DNA of 14,469 nucleotides from the UHGV virus genome UHGV-0142781. One strand, written 5' to 3'. Below, one piece after another: positions 2,983 through 13,645 of this stretch (position 1 is its first letter; every line of letters starts with the position of its first letter). The DNA is from a virus. A program made the position numbers and the translations under genes. A model generated the notes under the pieces. That model searched no databases. It saw only the letters and a list, made by a program, of their open reading frames with translations, and was not told the origin of the DNA.

Positions 2983-4818
2983 ATGAGCAATTCAAAATAC
3001 ATTAATTTAGATGCGAGAATAAAAAAACTAAAAGAAGTTGTTAAAGATTTAGACACAAACACTTTAGCAACCTACTCTTTTTGGGAAATGTACAAATTTG
3101 GTACATTAGGTCAAAAAATTGAACTACAATCACCAGCACGACAAATCTTATATCTTTTTGGGATTGCATGTTCATCTGCTGAACCAACCGAACCAACTGA
3201 TAATGTTGAGGGTAAGATAAAACAAACAGTAGAGATCCTAAATGATATTTTTACAAAATATATGTTGGCGTACTTTCCAACCAAAGATGATTTAAAATCT
3301 GGATTAGAAGATGAATGGCATAAAGTTAGAGAAGTTGCTATGCCAATGTTTTCAAACTACTTTTTTGAAGGGTTAAAAGTTTCCACTGAAAACTTCAAAG
3401 GGATCATAAAAAATTATTTCAATGGTTTTGAAAATGAAATAAAAACACATTTTGGCTTAGATCACCATGAAATGGTAGAAATTTTAAATCTCATTGGTGA
3501 GCTTATACAGAGCAAATATGACAGATTCCGTGAAATAATGGATACATTAAAAGACGAACATGAGAAATTTAAAGAGAATAATTTTGAAAAACATGAAGAT
3601 TTTATAACATATATGGATGACATGAGGGAGCGTACAAAACATTTAGCACAAGAATTTCATGACTTCCTCAATGGGAGTGTATCATTCAAGTTTGATTCAA
3701 TAAGATGTAAACTTGGTGACGATGTCGTTGATAGTTTTATAAAAGCTTTCGTTACAGAGCGTGGAAACTCATCCGAAATCAAATACATTACTGATGAGAA
3801 TCCATTTTCATATAAACCGATAGTAACTGTAAATAATCTGGATTATATGCTCCCTTCTGCTAACGCAGCTTATGAAGCTATCATTCTTAATCTTGAAAAG
3901 TTTTTTAAAGAGTCAAAACACAATGATAAATTTAGAAAAGCCCGAGACAACAGGCTGGAACATGAGACTTTTTGCACCTTTAGAAATTTCTTCCCTGAAT
4001 CAACTACAATACTTGAAAGTGTATTTGAAACAAACAAATCCCATAATGAACATGATCTGATTATTTTCCATGATAAAACGATTCTTATTGTAGAGGCTAA
4101 AGCATCACCACGCCGCGCTCCATTGAGAGAACCAGCCAGAGCATACATTAGAATTAGAGATGATTTCAAACGTAAATCAGGAATACAAAGCGCATCTGAA
4201 CAAGCAAATAACTTAAGAAATTTAATCATTAATAATGAAAAAACATCATTATATGATAAAAAAGGTAATTTACTATATACCATAAATCGTTGTGACTACG
4301 ACAATATATATTGTATATGTGTCACTAAAGATGATTTCGGAATGCTTGCTACAAATTTAACTTTAATGTTAGAAAAAAAAGAAGATGAACCCTACCCTTG
4401 GGTTATTTGTATTCAAGACTTGAAGTTTTATTTTGATTGCCTTAAGGAAATAGATTTGGATCATGACTATTTCTTAAATTATATTCGTGAAAGAATAAAA
4501 ATACACGGCAAAGCAACGGCATGTGATGAGCTTGAATATGCAGGTGCATACTTGAATTATGGTGGTTTCGATTTCATTAATAAAGAAGTAAACTCTAACG
4601 TTTGTCTTGATATCTCTGAATCACGAGTATTCGATGAAATCCATATCGAAAAAGTTAATGGCAGGAAATATGTTCACCAGATTAAAAAACCTACTTACAG
4701 CATTTTAAATAGAGATAAATTAATTTCTTCTTTAAATTTCAATCACTCAAACAAAGATGCAAAAAAAGCAAAATCAAAAAGAAAGGAACAGAAAAAATCC
4801 AGAAAAAGAAACCGTTAA
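2983..4818 (+). CDS. Cargo protein with central PD-(D/E)xK-like nuclease motif and poly-basic C-terminal tail; candidate defence effector
   Basis: 611 aa, strongly AT-rich. Residues 356-373 read EHDLIIFHDKTILIVEAK (D-x12-ExK, nt ~4048-4101). C-terminal 23 residues are almost all K/R/S. No Walker A motif. Confidence 0.85.
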   Translation: MSNSKYINLDARIKKLKEVVKDLDTNTLATYSFWEMYKFGTLGQKIELQSPARQILYLFGIACSSAEPTEPTDNVEGKIKQTVEILNDIFTKYMLAYFPTKDDLKSGLEDEWHKVREVAMPMFSNYFFEGLKVSTENFKGIIKNYFNGFENEIKTHFGLDHHEMVEILNLIGELIQSKYDRFREIMDTLKDEHEKFKENNFEKHEDFITYMDDMRERTKHLAQEFHDFLNGSVSFKFDSIRCKLGDDVVDSFIKAFVTERGNSSEIKYITDENPFSYKPIVTVNNLDYMLPSANAAYEAIILNLEKFFKESKHNDKFRKARDNRLEHETFCTFRNFFPESTTILESVFETNKSHNEHDLIIFHDKTILIVEAKASPRRAPLREPARAYIRIRDDFKRKSGIQSASEQANNLRNLIINNEKTSLYDKKGNLLYTINRCDYDNIYCICVTKDDFGMLATNLTLMLEKKEDEPYPWVICIQDLKFYFDCLKEIDLDHDYFLNYIRERIKIHGKATACDELEYAGAYLNYGGFDFINKEVNSNVCLDISESRVFDEIHIEKVNGRKYVHQIKKPTYSILNRDKLISSLNFNHSNKDAKKAKSKRKEQKKSRKRNR

Positions 4819-4872
4819 CAAAATATCCTTTTGACGAATTCAAACCAACTGAACATATGGAGAAAATAAAAC

Positions 4873-6228
4873 ATGAGAATGACCGCCCCATTAAAATCAT
4901 TTTCTGATGGATTTTGTGAGAATGACGACATTTTTGAAAGAAAAAAACTTCACGACATTATTATGCGAGTTGCTACTAACGCGCCTGATAAAAGTTTAGT
5001 TTTAGCATTAGATGATAAATGGGGTAATGGGAAAACTTCATTTGTAAAAATGATGGAATCAGAAATAAGCAAAAAACATTCCGATGATTTCGAAGTCATC
5101 TATTTTGATGCATTTAAAAGTGATTATCAGTCGGATCCATTTGTAGCGTTAACTTCCAATATTTATTCGTTGGTTAGTAATGAAGAAGGCAAGCTAAAAA
5201 CATTAGGTGAAAAATTATTAAGTGCTGGTAAAAAACTAGGAGCTTCATTCCTTTTAAATGGTGCGAAGTTTGCAATCAGTACTATTTCAGGTGGGATGGT
5301 TTCTGGTACTGTAGTCGAAAAGGCAAGTGATACAATATCAGAATCCATATCATCACCTGTAGAAAAATACATAGAAGAAAAGATAAAAGCAAGTGAGAGT
5401 GAGTTTGCTACTATTGAGCAATTTGGAAATTTGTTAACTGAGATATACAAAGAAAGTGGAAAGAAAATATTTTTTATAATTGATGAATTAGACCGTGCAC
5501 GACCTGATTTTTCATTGGATTTATTAGAAAAGATAAAACATATATTCTCAGTAGAGGGTATTATTTTTCTATTGGTCGTCAATCGCGAACAATTTGAAAA
5601 AAGCATTGAGTCTCGATATGGCAATATAAACTCAAGATTGTATCTCAATAAATTTGTTCATTACTGGTTTTCGCTTCCCAAAACAAGCTGTTTATCTGAT
5701 GGTTGCTTAAATGGATATACTTATTCAACTATAAAACGATATTTACTTTCCATTGATAATGGAAACGACTTATTAAGTAGAAATGGTCCGCTTCTTAATA
5801 CACTATCATTGCTTTTGGAAATAAATGGAGCTTCTTTGAGAGAGGCGGAACGCTGTTACTCGGTATTTTCGGTTATCGAAGATGTCAATAAAGTAAACTA
5901 CTATACAAGTGATGCATATAAAGTAGCTTTGGGACTTGTTGTTTTCCTGAAAGTACATAACTCACAGTTGTTAACTGAAATTGTCTTAAAAAAAATCGTG
6001 TTAAAAGAAGCGATAGCCAAGCTTTTAATATACACAGTTCATCACCACAATATAATCGAAGCTCAATTCATTGAATATATCTTAAAGTACCATTACGCAA
6101 CAAATGAAGAATTAATAGAAGAAAGGAAGCAAAGAACATACTCTGATATAGAAGGTGGATATGGTCGAAGAACTCCCCTATTAGAAGGCATGTTTAAAAC
6201 AGTTGAGGGGTTTGATATTAGTTCTTAA
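4873..6228 (+). CDS. KAP-like P-loop NTPase; candidate defence partner
   Basis: 451 aa, AT-rich. Walker A-like DDKWGNGKTSF (res 47-57, nt 5011-5043) and Walker B FFIIDELDR (res 200-208), about 150 residues apart with a hydrophobic stretch between, as in KAP NTPases. 54-bp gap after the upstream gene, same strand. Confidence 0.85.
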   Translation: MRMTAPLKSFSDGFCENDDIFERKKLHDIIMRVATNAPDKSLVLALDDKWGNGKTSFVKMMESEISKKHSDDFEVIYFDAFKSDYQSDPFVALTSNIYSLVSNEEGKLKTLGEKLLSAGKKLGASFLLNGAKFAISTISGGMVSGTVVEKASDTISESISSPVEKYIEEKIKASESEFATIEQFGNLLTEIYKESGKKIFFIIDELDRARPDFSLDLLEKIKHIFSVEGIIFLLVVNREQFEKSIESRYGNINSRLYLNKFVHYWFSLPKTSCLSDGCLNGYTYSTIKRYLLSIDNGNDLLSRNGPLLNTLSLLLEINGASLREAERCYSVFSVIEDVNKVNYYTSDAYKVALGLVVFLKVHNSQLLTEIVLKKIVLKEAIAKLLIYTVHHHNIIEAQFIEYILKYHYATNEELIEERKQRTYSDIEGGYGRRTPLLEGMFKTVEGFDISS

Positions 6229-6319: not shown

Positions 6320-8932
6320 TTATTTTGGGTGACTACCATCCACACCCGCCAGCATTTTTTGATACTCCCCGACCGGATCAAACCGCAGGCGCGTGGCATC
6401 AATACCGTGGTTATCACGCAGACGGTCCCATAATTTATTCACCGTCCGTGACTCATCGAGTAATTGACGCGTTATCAACTCGCCGCCAGCACTGCCCCGA
6501 TAAACTTTGCCGCCAATCTCCAGACGGCTCCCCATTAACAGCGAAACAGCCTGAATCTCTGAAATCTCAACCGAACACAACGCCGCATCAGCCAGCAGAC
6601 TGGCAACCTCAGGGGCAAGCGCTGCCCGCCTGGCTTTTTCAGCCGCCGATCTGGCCTCGGTTTTTTTAACGGCAGAACGCCAGGCAACATCTAATTCGCT
6701 CCCTGGCTCATAAGGTGATCCGCTTTGCCGCCTTTTGAATGGTGCTTCACGTAGTCGCCGCATCAATTTTCGCCGCGTTGGCTGGTCCATATTTTCAAAA
6801 TCGACGATTTCCTCTTCTGATTCTTCTGTCATACCCTCCACATCACGCGAAAAATCGGTGATTTTTTCGTCTTCCGTAGAGTTATTGACAGAACTCCAAG
6901 CGTCGCCGGTTGGCGACGGCAAAAGGTCAACCCCCAAACCGGGGCCGTTTTTGGCCTCGGTGGTAGCTTTAGATTTGGCGCAGATTTTCCACTTAACCAG
7001 ACGGGTACAAATACGGGAGGCATCACCCAGACGCGGCGACCAGACCCCGAAAACCTTTTCGGGGATCTCACAATAAGCATTCATTTCATCAGCTGGCTGA
7101 TAGGCCAGACGGACGACATAGTTTTCTCGCGGGATCAAAACCCCACCCTGGCGGATGATGTAGGTAGCAAAGCACCCGACATCGGCAGCGGCGCAAACCG
7201 CATCCATTGCAGGATCCACAAGCAACGGCGCACCGCGTTTGAAGGTATTGTCAATTTTCTGGCGGGTCGTGATTTGATTGCTCAGTTTGCGCAGCTCGCG
7301 GTAAACCGATATGGGCGGCTGTCCGATAGGCTGAAACTGGCGGATACGGTGAAGCGATGCCCAGGCCATTGCATATTTGGCGGTTTCATTCAGCGGCTTG
7401 CCGCTTTCGTCGTCCAGTTCACCGGCCAGCGCGTGGCCGTCGATATTCTTCGAAATGTATTTAGCGATATATGCCGTTGCCGACCCTTTCCGTGGGTCCA
7501 TTTTTTTTGACTTGAAACGAGCACCGGTATTGCGGCCCAGCTCATCGCGGTCTTCCGCAATGAAGTAGGCGCGAAGGATCGCAACCGTGGCTTTGACTTG
7601 CTCTTGTGGCATAAACAGCAACGCGTGCCAGTGTGGTGTCCCATCGTGATGCGGCTCGGCGACACGGAAGCCATAAGGGCGCAAATCTTCGCGTTTCAGT
7701 TTGGCGGTTGCACGGTTCCATACACGGCATAAATAGCGCTGCGCCTGGGCGACGGTGGAATGATTCCATTTGGCATTATGGTGGCCGGACGCAATATTAC
7801 TGTGATATTTCGACGGGCAAGTGATGGTCAGGAAAATACCAACATCGCCGCGACTTTGGGCGACAAGTTCAACGCCAGCCATTCTGGTCATAAGCTCATG
7901 GCGACGAATAGCCGGGTTAGACGTGGATTTATTAATCATTTCCTCAAGCGACGAAACGTTGCCGTCTTCGTCTACCAGTTCATGACTTTTGAAAAAATCC
8001 CGGTTTTTACGGCGCTGTTCCTGCCACTCGATCAGGCTGGAAGCGCTAACGTAGGCGTGCGCTTTTTTATTTACCGCGCCAACAGCACGCAGCTGGTTCT
8101 CGCGCCAGTCACAACGCAAGCGCCAGATTTTTCGCCCCCACCAGTCAGGCGAAGCCATACGCAAAATGGCCGTGCATATGCGCTCGCGTTCCCACGGCGC
8201 ATACCATGCAGGCGGCACAATACGAAGCGCCAGCATTTCTCGGCCCAGGTGGCAATAAAGCCAGTCCAGTTCTTCGACGTTCATGTCGGAAACATTCCGC
8301 CCTAGGGCTTCGCATTCCGTCCCCAGCATTTCAGCCATGCGGCTGGCGATCTCATTAGCGGCGCTTAGTGCATCCCGCTTTGTGAAATCAGCCAGACGTT
8401 GCCAGCGCCCGAACCAGTACGCGGCCAGTTCGCCGGTGATATCAGGCGAAACACCTTGCCTTGTGCGTACAACATCAAGACGCAGCAATGATTTTTTCAC
8501 GGTTCCCATAAGAAAATCATTGGTGTGTCTGGTTTCACGGTTGACCCGTAACCACTCAATTTTTTTTCGCCAGACTTCACGAATGAAGAACGGCTCTGCT
8601 AATAAACGCGCTTCGACACCTTCCGGCGTATTGGTCCAGGCTGCCGTCGTAGATTTGGCGGCTTCCATTTCCTGCCGGATTAAATTTTGATGGGCGGCCA
8701 GTGGCAGGCCGCACGGTTCGTACCTGTCCAGCGCCTGGATAAGCGCGTTACGGTCCCGCACCTCGTCGGGGTTGTAACCGGCGTGTCTGAAGATGTGATC
8801 GATGTGTTTTTTTACGGCAGGATGATGCGCCACCGCCCCGGCAAGCGGGGCGATTTTTTTCGGTTCGTAGGTGTACAGGCCAACAGCTGGGCGCGGCGCG
8901 TTCCAGGGCCATGCAAAAGCTGTGTCAGACAT
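6320..8932 (-). CDS. A: Replication initiation protein (P2 gpA family rolling-circle endonuclease)
   Basis: About 870 aa at the expected position upstream of the cargo slot; identified by size, synteny and general resemblance to gpA. ORF track starts at a GTG at 8950; the ATG at 8930-8932 (MSDTAF...) is the more likely start. Confidence 0.85.
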   Translation of the reverse strand: MSDTAFAWPWNAPRPAVGLYTYEPKKIAPLAGAVAHHPAVKKHIDHIFRHAGYNPDEVRDRNALIQALDRYEPCGLPLAAHQNLIRQEMEAAKSTTAAWTNTPEGVEARLLAEPFFIREVWRKKIEWLRVNRETRHTNDFLMGTVKKSLLRLDVVRTRQGVSPDITGELAAYWFGRWQRLADFTKRDALSAANEIASRMAEMLGTECEALGRNVSDMNVEELDWLYCHLGREMLALRIVPPAWYAPWERERICTAILRMASPDWWGRKIWRLRCDWRENQLRAVGAVNKKAHAYVSASSLIEWQEQRRKNRDFFKSHELVDEDGNVSSLEEMINKSTSNPAIRRHELMTRMAGVELVAQSRGDVGIFLTITCPSKYHSNIASGHHNAKWNHSTVAQAQRYLCRVWNRATAKLKREDLRPYGFRVAEPHHDGTPHWHALLFMPQEQVKATVAILRAYFIAEDRDELGRNTGARFKSKKMDPRKGSATAYIAKYISKNIDGHALAGELDDESGKPLNETAKYAMAWASLHRIRQFQPIGQPPISVYRELRKLSNQITTRQKIDNTFKRGAPLLVDPAMDAVCAAADVGCFATYIIRQGGVLIPRENYVVRLAYQPADEMNAYCEIPEKVFGVWSPRLGDASRICTRLVKWKICAKSKATTEAKNGPGLGVDLLPSPTGDAWSSVNNSTEDEKITDFSRDVEGMTEESEEEIVDFENMDQPTRRKLMRRLREAPFKRRQSGSPYEPGSELDVAWRSAVKKTEARSAAEKARRAALAPEVASLLADAALCSVEISEIQAVSLLMGSRLEIGGKVYRGSAGGELITRQLLDESRTVNKLWDRLRDNHGIDATRLRFDPVGEYQKMLAGVDGSHPK

Positions 8933-9146
8933 TGGATGCCCCGCTATCACCCTCCCGCTGGGAATGTTTTTCGATTAGCGGGTCGAGTAACACATTGAAA
9001 GAAATCAACAGCGTATTTGCGGCTTCACTTCCGGCGAGAACACCCGCGAACGTTGCGTGTGCAAGGGCCAGTGTTTTGGCTTCGTTAAGCGCAGCCAGTG
9101 CGCCGCGCTGGTATTCCGAAAGACCGTTATTAATTTTGTTAGCCAT
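8925..9146 (-). CDS. Small hypothetical phage early protein
   Basis: 73 aa; its ATG overlaps the dam stop (TGATG at ~9144-9148), suggesting translational coupling; position matches the small ORFs before A in P2. Confidence 0.6.
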   Translation of the reverse strand: MANKINNGLSEYQRGALAALNEAKTLALAHATFAGVLAGSEAANTLLISFNVLLDPLIEKHSQREGDSGASNV

Positions 9147-10808: not shown

Positions 10809-10946
10809 GTTGATCTCCGTCATATTGAAAAGATGCCGGGATACGACCCCACGCCCGGCGCGTGTTTCCTGTGATAACATCGCTATGCCTGTGTAACTTT
10901 GAGCAGTGAATCAGGCATAACAATCACCAACACAGAAGGAGTTGTA

Positions 10947-11426
10947 ATGAAATTCAATGTGTTTTTTAAAAAAGACCACGGATCACACTGGGTGCTTTCC
11001 GATGATTCCCCCCTCTTTGAAAGTCCACTATTTGAAACAAGACCTAAAGCCATTGATGACCTTGAGAACTTTGTAGGCCTTATGGAATCGCCAATCTTTA
11101 TTAAGGCTGGTGACGATATTAATTCTGGCGATACAGAAAACTGTCCATCTGTAGTAATTTCTTTAAAACAGCATGAATCGCTATGGGGCTGGGAATTATT
11201 TATCTCAAAAAATGGACAACTTTCTAAAGTTACCGAAAGTTCAGGTAATGGCTTTGACTCATTAGAATTAGCAAAGCAAAGTGCCCAGTTTTTCCTTAAT
11301 GCCATTATCGACGCTCCTATTCTGGATCAAGCCGATGTCGCTATCCCCGGCATGCACTTCTCAAAATCTTTCGAGGAAACGCACCACATTGGTGACACTC
11401 ACCCATCTAGTAAATGGTTCAAATAA
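10947..11426 (+). CDS. AT-rich hypothetical protein (moron), antisense to the early operon
   Basis: ATG at 10947 with AGGAG RBS at 10936-10940 (ORF track extends to 10899). 159 aa, visibly AT-richer than neighbours; no recognisable motifs. Confidence 0.7.
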   Translation: MKFNVFFKKDHGSHWVLSDDSPLFESPLFETRPKAIDDLENFVGLMESPIFIKAGDDINSGDTENCPSVVISLKQHESLWGWELFISKNGQLSKVTESSGNGFDSLELAKQSAQFFLNAIIDAPILDQADVAIPGMHFSKSFEETHHIGDTHPSSKWFK

Positions 11427-11430
11427 TCCA

Positions 11431-11778
11431 TCACTGTGGTGTTATCGTTTTTCTTGTGCGAGGTGGTACATCTCGCACGGTTTCTTCATCAACAATTAAC
11501 TCATAAACTCTGATGCTGCTATCACCTTTTGATACGTCATCAAATACCTGAAAAAGAAAACTCATGAATTGCTCATAAGTGACGCTGGGTTCAACATACC
11601 CACCAGTAACCTCAATTAATGGTGTTAGTCCTGAATTATCTGCTAACGAAACGCAGTCCAACTTATCCAAACGGAAAAAGTAATTACCGCAAGGTGTTCT
11701 TTTATCCTTAATCCGTATAAATACATTTGATAACGCTGTATGACTATCTGAGAGTTTAAAGATTTTTGCCGTGTCCAT
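11431..11778 (-). CDS. AT-rich hypothetical protein (moron) immediately downstream of cox
   Basis: 115 aa starting 22 nt after the cox stop on the same strand; its stop lies 4 bp from the stop of the convergent 10947-11426 gene. AT-rich relative to cox. Confidence 0.6.
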   Translation of the reverse strand: MDTAKIFKLSDSHTALSNVFIRIKDKRTPCGNYFFRLDKLDCVSLADNSGLTPLIEVTGGYVEPSVTYEQFMSFLFQVFDDVSKGDSSIRVYELIVDEETVRDVPPRTRKTITPQ

Positions 11779-11800: not shown

Positions 11801-12076
11801 TTATGATGGATTGCCCAGACCCAACCACATTAACCACCCTTCCCTAATTTCCTTCGGGCGGCTCTCATACGCCATTTTCATTCCGTTGTTCCATGCTGGG
11901 AGGTAGACCCAGTACTCACCTGCCCGCCCGGAAGTTGATTGCGGATCGGTCATCTCAACTACGGGTAGCTTTCCTTTTTCAATCATCCCCTTCACCGCTG
12001 CCGGTGTTTTACCAATGAGTTTTGCGAACTCCTGATATGGGACGGCATCTGTGCTTAACGCGATCTGTTTAACCAT
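11801..12076 (-). CDS. cox: Cox (excisionase / lytic-switch regulator)
   Basis: 91 aa; translation tracks my recollection of P2 Cox over most of its length (AIPYQEFAKLIGK, DPQSTSGRAGEYWVYLPAWNNG, ESRPKEIREGWLMWLGLG). GAGGG RBS. Confidence 0.9.
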   Translation of the reverse strand: MVKQIALSTDAVPYQEFAKLIGKTPAAVKGMIEKGKLPVVEMTDPQSTSGRAGEYWVYLPAWNNGMKMAYESRPKEIREGWLMWLGLGNPS

Positions 12077-12192
12077 TTAAGGCCCTCACAAGTTTAAGAA
12101 TCGTCACCAATGGCTTATAGTTGCCTTTGATGTTCATTTCTAAACATCAAACAGTCTACATCTAAATCAAATGGTATTGAGATCTAAACACT
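12077..12192. promoter_or_regulatory. Immunity switch region between cox and C (early and repressor promoters with operator repeats)
   Basis: Three direct repeats TCTAAACA (12139-12146), TCTAAATC (12161-12168), TCTAAACA (12183-12190), exactly 22 bp apart. A TATAAG -10-like element on the minus strand (~12113-12118) faces cox. Confidence 0.6.
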
Positions 12193-12492
12193 ATGTCAAA
12201 CGCCTTAAACGAGAAAATTGTACTCATCAGAAAGTCTGAGTATCTCAGCAGACAGCAACTAGCTGATTTAACAGGCATTCCCTATGGCACTTTAAGTTAT
12301 TACGAAAGTGGTCGTTCTACACCGCCCACGGACGTAATGATGAGGATTTTGCAAATGCCCCAATTCAGCAAATACACGTTGTGGTTTATGACCGATCAGG
12401 TTGCTCCCGAAGCCGGTCAGATAGCACCGGCCCTCGCACACTTTGGGCAAGATGTAACAACATCGCAGCACTCAGACCAAAAGATTGGTTAA
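12193..12492 (+). CDS. C: Immunity repressor C
   Basis: 99 aa; near-collinear with my recollection of P2 C (EKIVLIRKSEYLSRQQLADLTGIPYGTLSYYESGRSTPPTDVMM...), same length. Confidence 0.9.
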   Translation: MSNALNEKIVLIRKSEYLSRQQLADLTGIPYGTLSYYESGRSTPPTDVMMRILQMPQFSKYTLWFMTDQVAPEAGQIAPALAHFGQDVTTSQHSDQKIG

Positions 12493-12637: not shown

Positions 12638-13645
12638 ATGACAATTAAGAAACTCGATGATGGTCGTTATGAAGTGGATATCAGACCTGCAGGGCGCAAC
12701 GGAAAGCGCATCCGCAGGAAATTTGACAAGAAAAGTGAGGCTGTAGCTTTTGAGAAACACACTCAATACAACCATCACGATAAAGAATGGCTGGCTAAAC
12801 CGACAGATAAGCGGCATCTGTCTGAATTAACAAAAGTCTGGTGGGATCTGAAAGGCAAGCATGAAGAACACGGAAAATCCAATTTGGGTAAGATTGAAAT
12901 CTTTACCCGGATCACTGATGACCCTTGCGCGTTCCAGATAACCAAAGCGCTTATTAGCCAGTACAGCATGACTCGCAGAGGGCAAGGCATAAAACCGGCC
13001 AGTATTAACCGCGACCTTACCTGCTTGAGTGGTATGTTTACTGCGCTAATTGATGCGGAGTTGTTTTTTGGCGAACACCCTTTCAGAGGGATGAAAAAGC
13101 TCAAGGAGCAGAAACCAGAAACAGGCTATCTGACGCAGGAAGAAATAACATTGTTGCTTGCCAATCTTGACGGGGACAACAAGAAAATCGCGATTCTCTG
13201 TTTAAGTACCGGCGCTCGATGGGGTGAGGCCGCGAAACTGAAAGCTGAGAACGTAATACAGAATCGGGTGACGTTCGTTAAAACAAAGACGAACAAACCA
13301 CGTACTGTCCCTATCTCTGAGGAAGTAGCTGTAATGATTGCGGGTAAAGGGTATCTGTTCCCAGATGCCTCATACCCGAAGTTCAGGCGAACAATGAAAG
13401 ATGTAAAACCAGATCTACCGGACGGGCAAGCAACTCACGCATTGCGTCACAGTTTTGCTACCCACTTTATGATTAACGGCGGGAGTATCATCACCTTGCA
13501 GAGAATACTGGGACATTCACGGATAGAGCAGACAATGGTCTATGCGCACTTTGCCCCGGAGTATCTTCAGGATGCTGTTTCACTCAATCCGCTACGTGGT
13601 GGTGTTGACTCCCAGAGTGTCCACACTGTGTCCACAGTAGGGTAG
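12638..13645 (+). CDS. int: Tyrosine integrase (P2 Int family)
   Basis: 335 aa; N-terminus MTIKKLDDGRYEVDIRPAGRNGKRIRRKFDKKSEAVAFEK and C-terminal HALRHSFATHFM...LGHSRIEQTMVYAHFAPEY match P2 Int as I recall it. GGGGG RBS. Confidence 0.95.
   Translation: MTIKKLDDGRYEVDIRPAGRNGKRIRRKFDKKSEAVAFEKHTQYNHHDKEWLAKPTDKRHLSELTKVWWDLKGKHEEHGKSNLGKIEIFTRITDDPCAFQITKALISQYSMTRRGQGIKPASINRDLTCLSGMFTALIDAELFFGEHPFRGMKKLKEQKPETGYLTQEEITLLLANLDGDNKKIAILCLSTGARWGEAAKLKAENVIQNRVTFVKTKTNKPRTVPISEEVAVMIAGKGYLFPDASYPKFRRTMKDVKPDLPDGQATHALRHSFATHFMINGGSIITLQRILGHSRIEQTMVYAHFAPEYLQDAVSLNPLRGGVDSQSVHTVSTVG

What the first reader, a model, noticed from the sequence alone, without database searches (positions are those of the whole stretch)
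12077..12192. Three 8-bp direct repeats at exact 22-bp phasing in the C/cox switch
TCTAAACA / TCTAAATC / TCTAAACA start at 12139, 12161 and 12183, two helical turns apart. The P2 C repressor is known to bind direct repeats at this spacing. Here there appear to be three copies, the last ending 3 bp before the C start codon, so it may overlap the C ribosome-binding region and offer autoregulation.
Basis: partly seen in the sequence, partly recalled or inferred. Interest (0 to 1): 0.35.

Follow-up and report, generated by a model that had tools for sequence, protein, structure and literature searches.

The report
Three-part repressor operator in P2-like prophage
The three phased repeats are real: two are the already-known binding sites of the phage P2 repressor, and the third, which sits over the repressor gene's own promoter, is probably an undescribed extra site that lets the repressor limit its own production.

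Summary
TCTAAA occurs at 12139, 12161 and 12183, exactly 22 bp apart. Only 2 of 20,000 shuffles of the 116-bp spacer give such a triple.

The locus is a P2-type C/cox switch. C is 84% and Cox 80% identical to the P2 proteins.

Alignment to the annotated P2 genome shows that the copy next to the C start codon is the canonical O1. The middle copy is O2. Both are known, and both are invariant in 79 of 80 related loci. The extra copy is the cox-proximal one (12138-12145, TTCTAAAC, 7/8). It lies about +10 to +18 of the C promoter Pc.

P2 itself has only a decayed 6/8 copy there, and its published footprint stops just short of it.

In at least three heteroimmune relatives, a third copy carries that class's own half-site sequence at that class's own spacing. 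WPhi has none.

I conclude, by inference, that this is a low-affinity third half-site (O3). It would extend the repressor array over Pc, giving negative autoregulation.

Caveats: O3 is no better conserved than its flanks in the P2 class. It also overlaps a conserved hairpin with compensatory changes. No binding data exist.

The parts
11801..12076 (-). cox gene (91 aa), first gene of the early operon transcribed from Pe
   Evidence: ORF. 80% amino-acid identity to P2 Cox. Pfam Phage_Cox on the identical gene.
12094..12121 (+). Predicted Pc promoter for C and int: TTAAGA, 16-bp spacer, TATAGT (-10 hexamer at 12116-12121). Start estimated near 12128-12129.
   Evidence: Consensus scan. The -10 aligns with the annotated P2 Pc -10 TATAAT. 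The start site is inferred from the -10 position and from the published ~35-nt overlap of P2 Pe and Pc transcripts (PMC1904263).
12126..12151 (-). Conserved inverted repeat TTTGATGTT/AACATCAAA. On the Pe (early) transcript it can form an 11-bp stem with a GAAA loop at about +13 to +38. It encloses the third repeat.
   Evidence: -11.4 kcal/mol, z = -4.3 on the - strand. Compensatory changes at 3 pairs across 5 lineages. The - strand pairs better, 199/220 versus 166/220 cells.
12138..12145 (-). Extra third half-site, here called O3: GTTTAGAA on the Pe strand (TTCTAAAC on +). It matches the P2 half-site GTTTAGAT at 7/8 and lies exactly 22 bp from O2. Position is about +10 to +18 of Pc and +19 to +26 of Pe.
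   Evidence: P2 has ATCCAAGC (6/8) at the same phase. TTCTAAAC is also present in E. coli EC11 and IMG/VR relatives. Statistics. Cross-class tracking.
12160..12167 (-). O2 half-site of the C operator: ATTTAGAT on the Pe strand, 7/8. Sister strains carry the exact GTTTAGAT. It spans the predicted Pe start.
   Evidence: Aligns to the annotated P2 O2. The T/C polymorphism at 12167 is seen.
12171..12176 (-). Pe -10 hexamer TACCAT, lying between O1 and O2
   Evidence: Consensus scan (TTGACA, 17-bp spacer, TACCAT, 10/12). Aligns to the annotated P2 Pe -10 TAGTAT.
12182..12189 (-). O1 half-site of the C operator: GTTTAGAT on the Pe strand, 8/8, between Pe -35 and -10.
   Evidence: Same sequence and same distance from the C ATG as the annotated P2 O1.
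12194..12199 (-). Pe -35 hexamer TTGACA, overlapping the C start codon
   Evidence: Same arrangement as the annotated P2 record and as class T relatives.
12193..12492 (+). C immunity repressor gene (99 aa, helix-turn-helix)
   Evidence: 84% identity to P2 C, with the whole stretch from residue 13 to 50 (which includes the region aligned to the P2 helix-turn-helix) differing only at V29I. Pfam HTH_3 on the identical protein.
12638..13645 (+). Integrase, second gene of the Pc operon (context)
   Evidence: ORF. Pfam Int_N and Phage_integrase on the identical locus layout.

Best explanation
The 116-bp spacer between cox and C is the lysis/lysogeny switch of a P2 immunity-class prophage, probably in Salmonella. 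The two convergent promoters are Pe (early, leftward here) and Pc (C and int, rightward).

The two repeats nearest C are the known operator half-sites. O1 lies between Pe -35 and -10. O2 lies over the Pe start. Two C dimers bind them cooperatively on one face of the helix and shut off Pe.

The cox-proximal repeat is a third, weaker half-site (O3), two further helical turns along on the same face. It lies over the first ~20 bp transcribed from Pc.

I infer that at high C concentration a third dimer joins the array through the same dimer-dimer contacts that couple O1 and O2. From the P2 footprint pattern, each dimer covers its half-site plus about 12 bp on the cox side. A dimer at O3 would therefore cover roughly 12126-12145, which includes the Pc start. 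That would hinder RNA polymerase at Pc and give the negative arm of C autoregulation. It may also tighten Pe repression.

Shown here: the sequence, the phasing, the homology to annotated P2 sites, and the comparative pattern. Inferred: C binding at O3 and its effect on Pc.
For: 1. C is 84% identical to P2 C, and residues 13-50 (which include the region aligned to the P2 helix-turn-helix) differ only at V29I. The same DNA specificity is therefore expected.

2. O1 and O2 align to the sites annotated in AF063097. They are exact in 79 of 80 loci retrieved through the protein alone, spread over five diverged spacer lineages.

3. O3 matches the half-site at 7/8. By my reading of the three sites in register, O1 and O2 also share a T at -5 and an A at -2 on their cox-proximal flank (the + strand as read in the window). 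O3 matches 9 of the resulting 10 shared positions. It sits at exactly the O1-O2 spacing.

4. Chance level is about 1e-4.

5. All five P2-class lineages give a significant three-way periodic match at lags 22/22, with p at or below 0.005.

6. The third site tracks specificity in heteroimmune relatives.
- The 'TAGAG' class (C 77% identical) has TAGA at -17, -36/-37 and -56/-57 in 35, 32 and 33 of 38 distinct spacers.
- In that class the TAGA...GA skeleton is as conserved in the third unit as in the second, while the interior bases vary.
- Its Pe has the same layout as in P2.
- Two further classes also show own-type third copies at their own spacing (19/19 and 21/20).

7. Literature:
- P2 C raises its own expression at low concentration and lowers it at high concentration (PMC3448106).
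- The P2 footprint runs from O1 to about 12 nt beyond O2, as four patches (PMC1904263).
- The Pe and Pc transcripts overlap by about 35 nt (PMC1904263), which places O3 at about Pc +10 to +18.
Against: 1. In the P2 class, O3 is no better conserved than its neighbours: 0.88 against 0.83-0.87 for the spacers, and 0.97-1.0 for O2 and O1.

2. In P2, the only member with biochemistry, the third copy is 6/8 with both mismatches in the core. The published footprint stops about 3 bp short of it (PMC1904263). No report of a third site was found.

3. O3 lies in the loop and one arm of a conserved hairpin. In P2 the A-to-G change that damages the O3 match is compensated across the stem. The stem, not C binding, may therefore be what is selected at those bases.

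4. The region is rich in CTAAA and TCAAA motifs.

5. WPhi has no third copy (5/10 at the in-phase position, by my letter-by-letter count of the sequence returned), and several other classes show none. The design is not universal.

6. The operators of the other classes are assigned by position only, not by experiment.
Confidence: 0.55

Rival explanations
1. Only O1 and O2 are repressor sites. The third copy is a non-functional relic of an old duplication of the operator unit. It is kept partly similar because its bases belong to a conserved hairpin in the early-transcript leader, or to Pc initial-transcribed sequence, in AT-rich, motif-poor DNA.
For: - O3 conservation equals that of its flanks in the P2 class.
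- The hairpin shows compensatory changes at 3 pairs. One of these is the pair that removes the O3 match in P2.
- The P2 footprint ends before the site (PMC1904263).
- P2 C needs two half-sites and weak sites bind poorly (PMC1904263).
Against: - A relic would not carry each immunity class's own half-site sequence at each class's own spacing, as seen in at least three other classes.
- The in-phase position is the best match in the whole upstream region in four of five P2-class lineages.
- The chance level is about 1e-4.
Confidence: 0.3
2. The cox-proximal repeat is a Cox-binding site (cox-box) and belongs to the Cox operator over Pc, not to the C operator.
For: - CTAAACATC (12140-12148) matches the cox-box consensus TTAAA(G/C)NC(A/C) at 6/8 (consensus from PMC3936717).
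- At high concentration Cox spreads from Pc towards Pe (PMC3936717).
Against: - 6/8 is also reached by O1 and by several other AT-rich 9-mers.
- The better cox-box-like sites lie on the other strand at 12064-12130, as they do in P2 (887-914 of L001).
- Cox boxes repeat every 10-11 bp, not every 22 bp.
- Cox is 80% conserved across classes whose third copy changes with C specificity.
Confidence: 0.07
3. One reading: the copy next to the C start codon is the special third site, and it autoregulates C by overlapping its ribosome-binding region.
For: The copy at 12182-12189 does lie between a weak GAGA Shine-Dalgarno-like motif and the ATG. It is also inside the Pc transcription unit, so bound C could act as a roadblock (concept from PMC5001618).
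Against: - It is the canonical O1, identical in sequence and position in P2. It lies between Pe -35 and -10.
- C is a DNA-binding protein, so overlap with the RBS in DNA has no translational meaning.
- Nothing distinguishes this phage from P2 at this copy.
Confidence: 0.03
4. The threefold phasing is coincidence.
For: The motifs are short and the DNA is AT-rich.
Against: - 2 of 20,000 shuffles give such a triple.
- Two of the three copies are experimentally defined sites in P2.
- The pattern recurs in five lineages and in other classes.
Confidence: 0.02

Closest known systems
Bacteriophage P2 C operator O1/O2 at Pe (immunity class I)
   Same: - Repressor 84% identical.
- Same 8-bp half-site GTTTAGAT and same 22-bp spacing.
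- Same placement flanking Pe -10, with Pe -35 over the C start codon.
- Same convergent Pe/Pc layout (PMC1904263, PMC2995052).
   Different: - P2 is described with two half-sites only.
- Its in-phase third position is a decayed ATCCAAGC (6/8), and the footprint stops short of it.
- Here the third position is TTCTAAAC (7/8).
- O2 in this window carries one mismatch.
Lambda OR1-OR2-OR3
   Same: A three-site operator in which two strong sites repress the lytic promoter. A third, weaker site overlaps the repressor's own promoter and lowers repressor synthesis at high concentration (established knowledge).
   Different: - Lambda sites are 17-bp palindromes, each bound by a dimer.
- PR and PRM are back-to-back, not face-to-face.
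- Positive control is by direct contact with polymerase, whereas in P2 it is thought to be relief of interference from Pe.
- The proteins share no homology beyond the helix-turn-helix fold.
Operators of heteroimmune P2-like phages WPhi and P2 Hy dis
   Same: Direct-repeat half-sites for a small dimeric C repressor at Pe (PMC1904268).
   Different: - Spacing is 34 bp in WPhi and 26 bp in Hy dis.
- The half-site sequences differ.
- WPhi shows no in-phase third copy (my count on the sequence).
Unnamed 'TAGAG' immunity class of P2-like prophages (e.g. IMG/VR loci L216, L233; Scandinavium L004)
   Same: - Same gene layout and same Pe architecture.
- Three in-phase direct repeats, with the third as conserved as the second.
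   Different: - The unit is TAGAG-N5-6-YGA at 19-20 bp.
- There is no experimental work on this class. Assignment of the repeats as operators is by position only.

Membership tests
P2 immunity-class-I C/cox switch operator | Divergent 99-aa helix-turn-helix C gene and 91-aa cox gene separated by about 110-116 bp | tested here: met
   ORFs at 12193-12492 (+) and 11801-12076 (-), with a 116-bp spacer. 84% and 80% identity to P2 C and Cox. Pfam HTH_3 and Phage_Cox.
P2 immunity-class-I C/cox switch operator | Two 8-bp direct repeats GTTTAGAT, 22 bp centre to centre | tested here: met
   O1 at 12182-12189 is 8/8. O2 at 12160-12167 is 7/8 and is 8/8 in sister strains. Spacing is 22 bp.
P2 immunity-class-I C/cox switch operator | Half-sites flank the Pe -10, and Pe -35 overlaps the C start codon | tested here: met
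   TTGACA, 17-bp spacer, TACCAT on the - strand at 12199-12171. Same layout as annotated P2. These are consensus predictions, not mapped starts.
P2 immunity-class-I C/cox switch operator | Same DNA-recognition region in C as in P2 C | tested here: met
   Residues 13-50, which include the region aligned to the P2 helix-turn-helix, differ only at V29I.
P2 immunity-class-I C/cox switch operator | Cooperative binding of C dimers, and immunity to P2 superinfection | not testable with these tools
   Needs purified protein or phage crosses.
Proposed third C half-site (O3) | Half-site sequence in the same orientation and helical phase as O1/O2 | tested here: met
   TTCTAAAC, 7/8, exactly 22 bp from O2. 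Shuffle tests.
Proposed third C half-site (O3) | Sequence and spacing change together with repressor specificity in heteroimmune relatives | tested here: met
   Met in the TAGAG class, the L224 subclass and the L291/L329 class. Not met in WPhi (my count on the sequence) or in several other classes.
Proposed third C half-site (O3) | Conserved above its flanks within the P2 class | tested here: not met
   0.88 against 0.83-0.87 for the spacers, and 0.97-1.0 for O2 and O1. The P2 copy is 6/8.
Proposed third C half-site (O3) | Bound by C, with an effect on Pc | not testable with these tools
   The published P2 footprint ends about 3 bp short of the P2 equivalent (PMC1904263). No data exist for this phage.
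Cox-box array | TTAAA(G/C)NC(A/C) in at least 6 copies at 10-11 bp intervals | tested here: not met
   The third repeat scores 6/8, as does O1. The better matches lie on the other strand at 12064-12130. The repeats under study are 22 bp apart.
Known RNA family or intrinsic terminator (for the enclosing hairpin) | Rfam match, or a GC-rich stem followed by a T-run | tested here: not met
   No Rfam hit in the window. No terminator-like site at 12126-12151.

The most novel reading that the evidence does not exclude
Three in-phase half-sites, not two, are the normal operator design in a large part of the P2-like C/cox switch family. The third site sits over the start of the repressor's own transcript. 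It would be the missing molecular basis for the concentration-dependent self-repression of C reported in 1987. P2, the model phage, would then be an outlier whose third site has largely decayed, which is why the literature describes only O1 and O2. Prophages such as this one would hold C at a lower, tighter set-point than P2.
Probability: 0.4. Interest if true: 0.5.

Novelty: new variant of a known kind. Interest (0 to 1): 0.42.

Why it matters
P2 C is the textbook case of a symmetric dimer that reads direct repeats. How it both raises and lowers its own synthesis has been explained only by 'proximity' to polymerase at Pc.

A third phased half-site over the Pc start would give a concrete, mutable element for that feedback. 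It would also extend the cooperative-array model from two dimers to three. It would predict different lysogen stability and spontaneous induction among P2-like prophages, which are very common in Salmonella, E. coli and Klebsiella.

The O1/O2 part of the finding is ordinary and already known.

Tried and rejected
- **Genome-contig scan with the C protein.** These were useful only as other classes.

- **Metagenome pattern scan (parsed).** No new P2-class lineage. It found variants of lineages A and B, a marine tandem repeat (L388) and one chance hit (L404).

- **Automatic 'find best pair, then test the in-phase third position' test.** It was noisy, because it often chose O3-O2 or unrelated pairs as the reference. 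I replaced it with the three-way periodic test.

- **A fourth copy outside the array.** By eye, 22 bp upstream of O3 (12116-12123, the Pc -10) matches 0/8. Downstream of O1, 21 bp on, 12203-12210 matches 5/8 inside the C coding sequence. Neither is convincing.

- **WPhi as an experimentally defined test case.** No third copy: 5/10 by my count.

- **Cox-box reading of the third repeat.** Weak.

- **Terminator or known RNA family for the hairpin.** None.

- **Strand of the hairpin from wobble pairs in the 9-bp stem.** Ambiguous. Extending to 11 pairs favoured the - strand.

- **Papers I could not read.** Saha 1987 (PMC553466), Karlsson 2006 (PMC1482927), Liu 1999 (PMC113030) and Ljungquist 1984 (PMC345353). 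The statement that a third site is undescribed therefore rests on the four NAR/J Biomol NMR papers and the 2011 review-type paper that I could read, plus full-text searches.

Full report
**Observation.**
The sequence shows TCTAAACA at 12139, TCTAAATC at 12161 and TCTAAACA at 12183. Starts are 22 bp apart, and the last copy ends two bases before the ATG at 12193. In the register used for phage P2 the sites are:
- TTCTAAAC, 12138-12145
- ATCTAAAT, 12160-12167
- ATCTAAAC, 12182-12189

These are the only matches to ATCTAAAC (at most 1 mismatch) in the intergenic spacer. An exact 6-mer triple at any equal spacing of 15-35 bp arose in 2 of 20,000 dinucleotide-preserving shuffles of the 116-bp spacer.

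**What the locus is.**
The spacer separates two genes:
- a 91-aa gene on the - strand (11801-12076), 80% identical to P2 Cox
- a 99-aa gene on the + strand (12193-12492), 84% identical to P2 C

An integrase follows C. In C, residues 13-50, which include the region aligned to the P2 helix-turn-helix, differ only at V29I.

The exact C protein occurs in more than a thousand assembly blocks. In the examples shown it lies next to clpA or next to yegR/yegS. The flanking clpA is 87% identical to E. coli clpA, so the host is probably Salmonella. That is an inference.

**Assigning the copies.**
The P2 GenBank record annotates O1, O2 and both promoters. Aligned to it:
- The copy at 12182-12189 is O1. 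It has the same sequence and the same distance from the C ATG as in P2.
- The copy at 12160-12167 is O2, with one mismatch. Sister strains carry the exact sequence.
- The Pe -35 TTGACA overlaps the C start codon, and the Pe -10 (TACCAT) lies between O1 and O2. P2 has the same layout.

The extra copy is the cox-proximal one, at 12138-12145.

The literature describes two 8-bp half-sites (GTTTAGAT) 22 bp apart. Two dimers bind them cooperatively, and each dimer reads one repeat specifically and the adjacent DNA less specifically (PMC1904263, PMC1904268, PMC2995052, PMC4752584).

**The extra copy.**
It matches the half-site at 7/8. When the three sites are read in register, O1 and O2 also share a T at -5 and an A at -2 on their cox-proximal flank (the + strand as read in the window). 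The extra copy matches 9 of the resulting 10 shared positions; this is my own count on the sequence. P2 has ATCCAAGC (6/8) at exactly the same phase.

The predicted Pc -10 (TATAGT, 12116-12121) aligns with the P2 Pc -10. P2 Pe and Pc transcripts overlap by about 35 nt (PMC1904263). Together these place the copy at about +10 to +18 of Pc and +19 to +26 of Pe. The published P2 C footprint runs to about +16 of Pe, as four protected patches (PMC1904263). It therefore stops about 3 bp short of the P2 equivalent.

**Relatives of the same immunity class.**
I used two scans:
- A pattern scan of IMG/VR gave 102 matching stretches.
- A protein-based scan, which is unbiased with respect to the operator, gave 80 loci with C at least 84% identical.

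In the protein-based set, 79 of 80 loci carry exact O2-N14-O1-N3-ATG. They fall into five diverged spacer lineages. The third position reads:
- ATCCAAGC in the P2 lineage
- TACTAAAC in lineage B
- TTCTAAAC in the window lineage and in the E. coli EC11 lineage
- TTTTAAAC in lineage E

Column conservation across the five lineages:

| Segment | Conservation |
|---|---|
| O1 | 1.0 |
| O2 | 0.97 |
| Third site | 0.88 |
| Spacers | 0.83-0.87 |

The third site is therefore not singled out by conservation within this class. Even so, a three-way periodic test gives p at or below 0.005 in all five lineages, always at lags 22/22. A metagenome scan added no new lineage.

**Other immunity classes.**
Two further scans brought in about 155 loci of heteroimmune relatives.

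The closest class has C 77% identical. Its repeat unit is TAGAG-N5-6-YGA.
- TAGA lies at -17, -36/-37 and -56/-57 in 35, 32 and 33 of 38 distinct spacers.
- In the alignment, the TAGA...GA skeleton of the third unit is as invariant as that of the second, while the interior bases vary freely.
- 16 lineage representatives of this class give p below 0.01.
- Pe has the P2 layout.

Two more classes show own-type third copies at their own spacing:
- AGCATCTAGAAA / AACTTCCAGACA / AGGATCTAGATA at 21/20
- CAATAAGAGTAA / CGATAGGGGCAA / CCATAGGAGTAA at 19/19

So the third copy follows both the class-specific sequence and the class-specific spacing. A decaying relic, or a site for another protein, would not be expected to do that.

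The design is not universal. WPhi, whose operators are experimentally defined, has only a 5/10 match at the in-phase position by my count. Several other classes show nothing.

**A complication: a conserved hairpin.**
The third copy lies in the loop and one arm of a perfect 9-bp inverted repeat (12126-12134 / 12143-12151). Across 20 distinct sequences:
- 84% of cells pair, against 27-48% when the partner is slid.
- Three pairs show compensatory changes: AU/GC/UA, GC/AU and UA/CG.

One of those pairs contains the very base whose change spoils the half-site match in P2. At that base, the stem is evidently what is maintained.

The - strand, which is the Pe transcript, pairs better: 199/220 against 166/220 cells for an 11-bp stem. 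In the window it folds at -11.4 kcal/mol with z = -4.3. It is not a terminator and matches no Rfam family. Its function is unknown. A stabilising or pausing structure in the early leader is a guess.

**Mechanism proposed.**
O1 and O2 are the known Pe operator. The third copy (O3) is most simply read as a weaker half-site on the same helical face. Going by the P2 footprint pattern, a third dimer there would cover about 12126-12145, which includes the Pc start. It would compete with polymerase at Pc.

This fits two known facts:
- C raises its own synthesis at low concentration and lowers it at high concentration (PMC3448106).
- A repressor bound at a convergent promoter lies in the path of the other promoter's polymerase (PMC5001618).

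Binding at O3 and its effect on Pc are inferred, not shown. My confidence is about 0.55.

**Rivals.**
- Relic plus hairpin constraint: 0.30.
- Cox-box: 0.07. The match is only 6/8, and the better cox-box-like sites lie on the other strand at 12064-12130.
- Chance: 0.02.

**Novelty.**
O1 and O2 are already known. This is a new member of P2 immunity class I.

A third phased half-site is not mentioned in any paper I could read or search. However, four key older papers were not available.

I rate the finding a new variant of a known kind. It is of moderate interest to people who work on phage switches.

Noticed in passing
window 12126-12151: Perfect 9-bp inverted repeat TTTGATGTT/AACATCAAA enclosing the third repeat. 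It is conserved as a structure in all five P2-class lineages, with compensatory changes at three pairs. It pairs better on the - strand (Pe/early transcript leader, 11-bp stem, -11.4 kcal/mol). It is not a terminator and matches no Rfam family.
   Followed up: yes
window 12146-12155 and 12166-12175: A second repeat at lag 20, ATCAAACAGT / ATCAAATGGT. The O3 and O2 units therefore resemble each other over about 17 nt apart from a 2-nt indel. P2 has the analogous ACTAAACA / ACTAAATA. This hints at an old duplication of a ~20-22-bp operator unit.
   Followed up: no
L208 and L211, about 45-55 nt upstream of the C start at 601 (E. coli 2011C-4251 type; also L024): This lineage of the TAGAG class lacks its own-type third unit. 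At that position it carries ACATCTAAAAC, which looks like a P2-class half-site with one extra A. This suggests recombination between immunity modules.
   Followed up: no
class T loci, e.g. L216 about 511-560: In the TAGAG class the conserved TCTCTAA, which overlaps the likely Pc -10, is an inverted copy of the third unit's TTAGAGA. The two are predicted to pair. It could be a fourth, inverted half-site or a counterpart of the P2-class hairpin.
   Followed up: no
window 2983-6228: Two cargo genes lie between the portal-like gene (1546-2607) and the 876-aa ORF at 6320-8950. That ORF is read as replication gene A from the Phage_GPA hit on the corresponding gene. The first cargo gene is a 611-aa ORF with no Pfam or PADLOC hit. 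The second is a 451-aa KAP-family P-loop NTPase matching the candidate defence family PDC-S20 (E = 9e-72), with weaker matches to PifA and QatA. From my own knowledge, this position corresponds to the variable cargo/defence locus near the right end of P2-like genomes.
   Followed up: partly
L363-L368: The identical C protein, with the same cox-C-int layout, is found next to clpA in some assemblies (as in the window) and next to yegR/yegS, or next to other genes, in others. Either the integrases differ in site choice or this module has moved between phages. Integrase sequences were not compared.
   Followed up: no
window 12064-12130, - strand: Cox-box-like 9-mers (TTAAACAGA, TTAAACTTG, TATAAGCCA, TCAAAGGCA; 6-7 of 8) lie over the predicted Pc promoter. 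This parallels P2, where they lie at L001 887-914. They are the likely Cox operator of this phage.
   Followed up: partly
window 10899-11778: Directly downstream of cox are a 115-aa ORF (-) and a 175-aa ORF on the opposite strand (+). Neither has a Pfam or PADLOC hit. Sister prophages carry different genes here, so this is a variable slot where P2 has orf78 and B.
   Followed up: no
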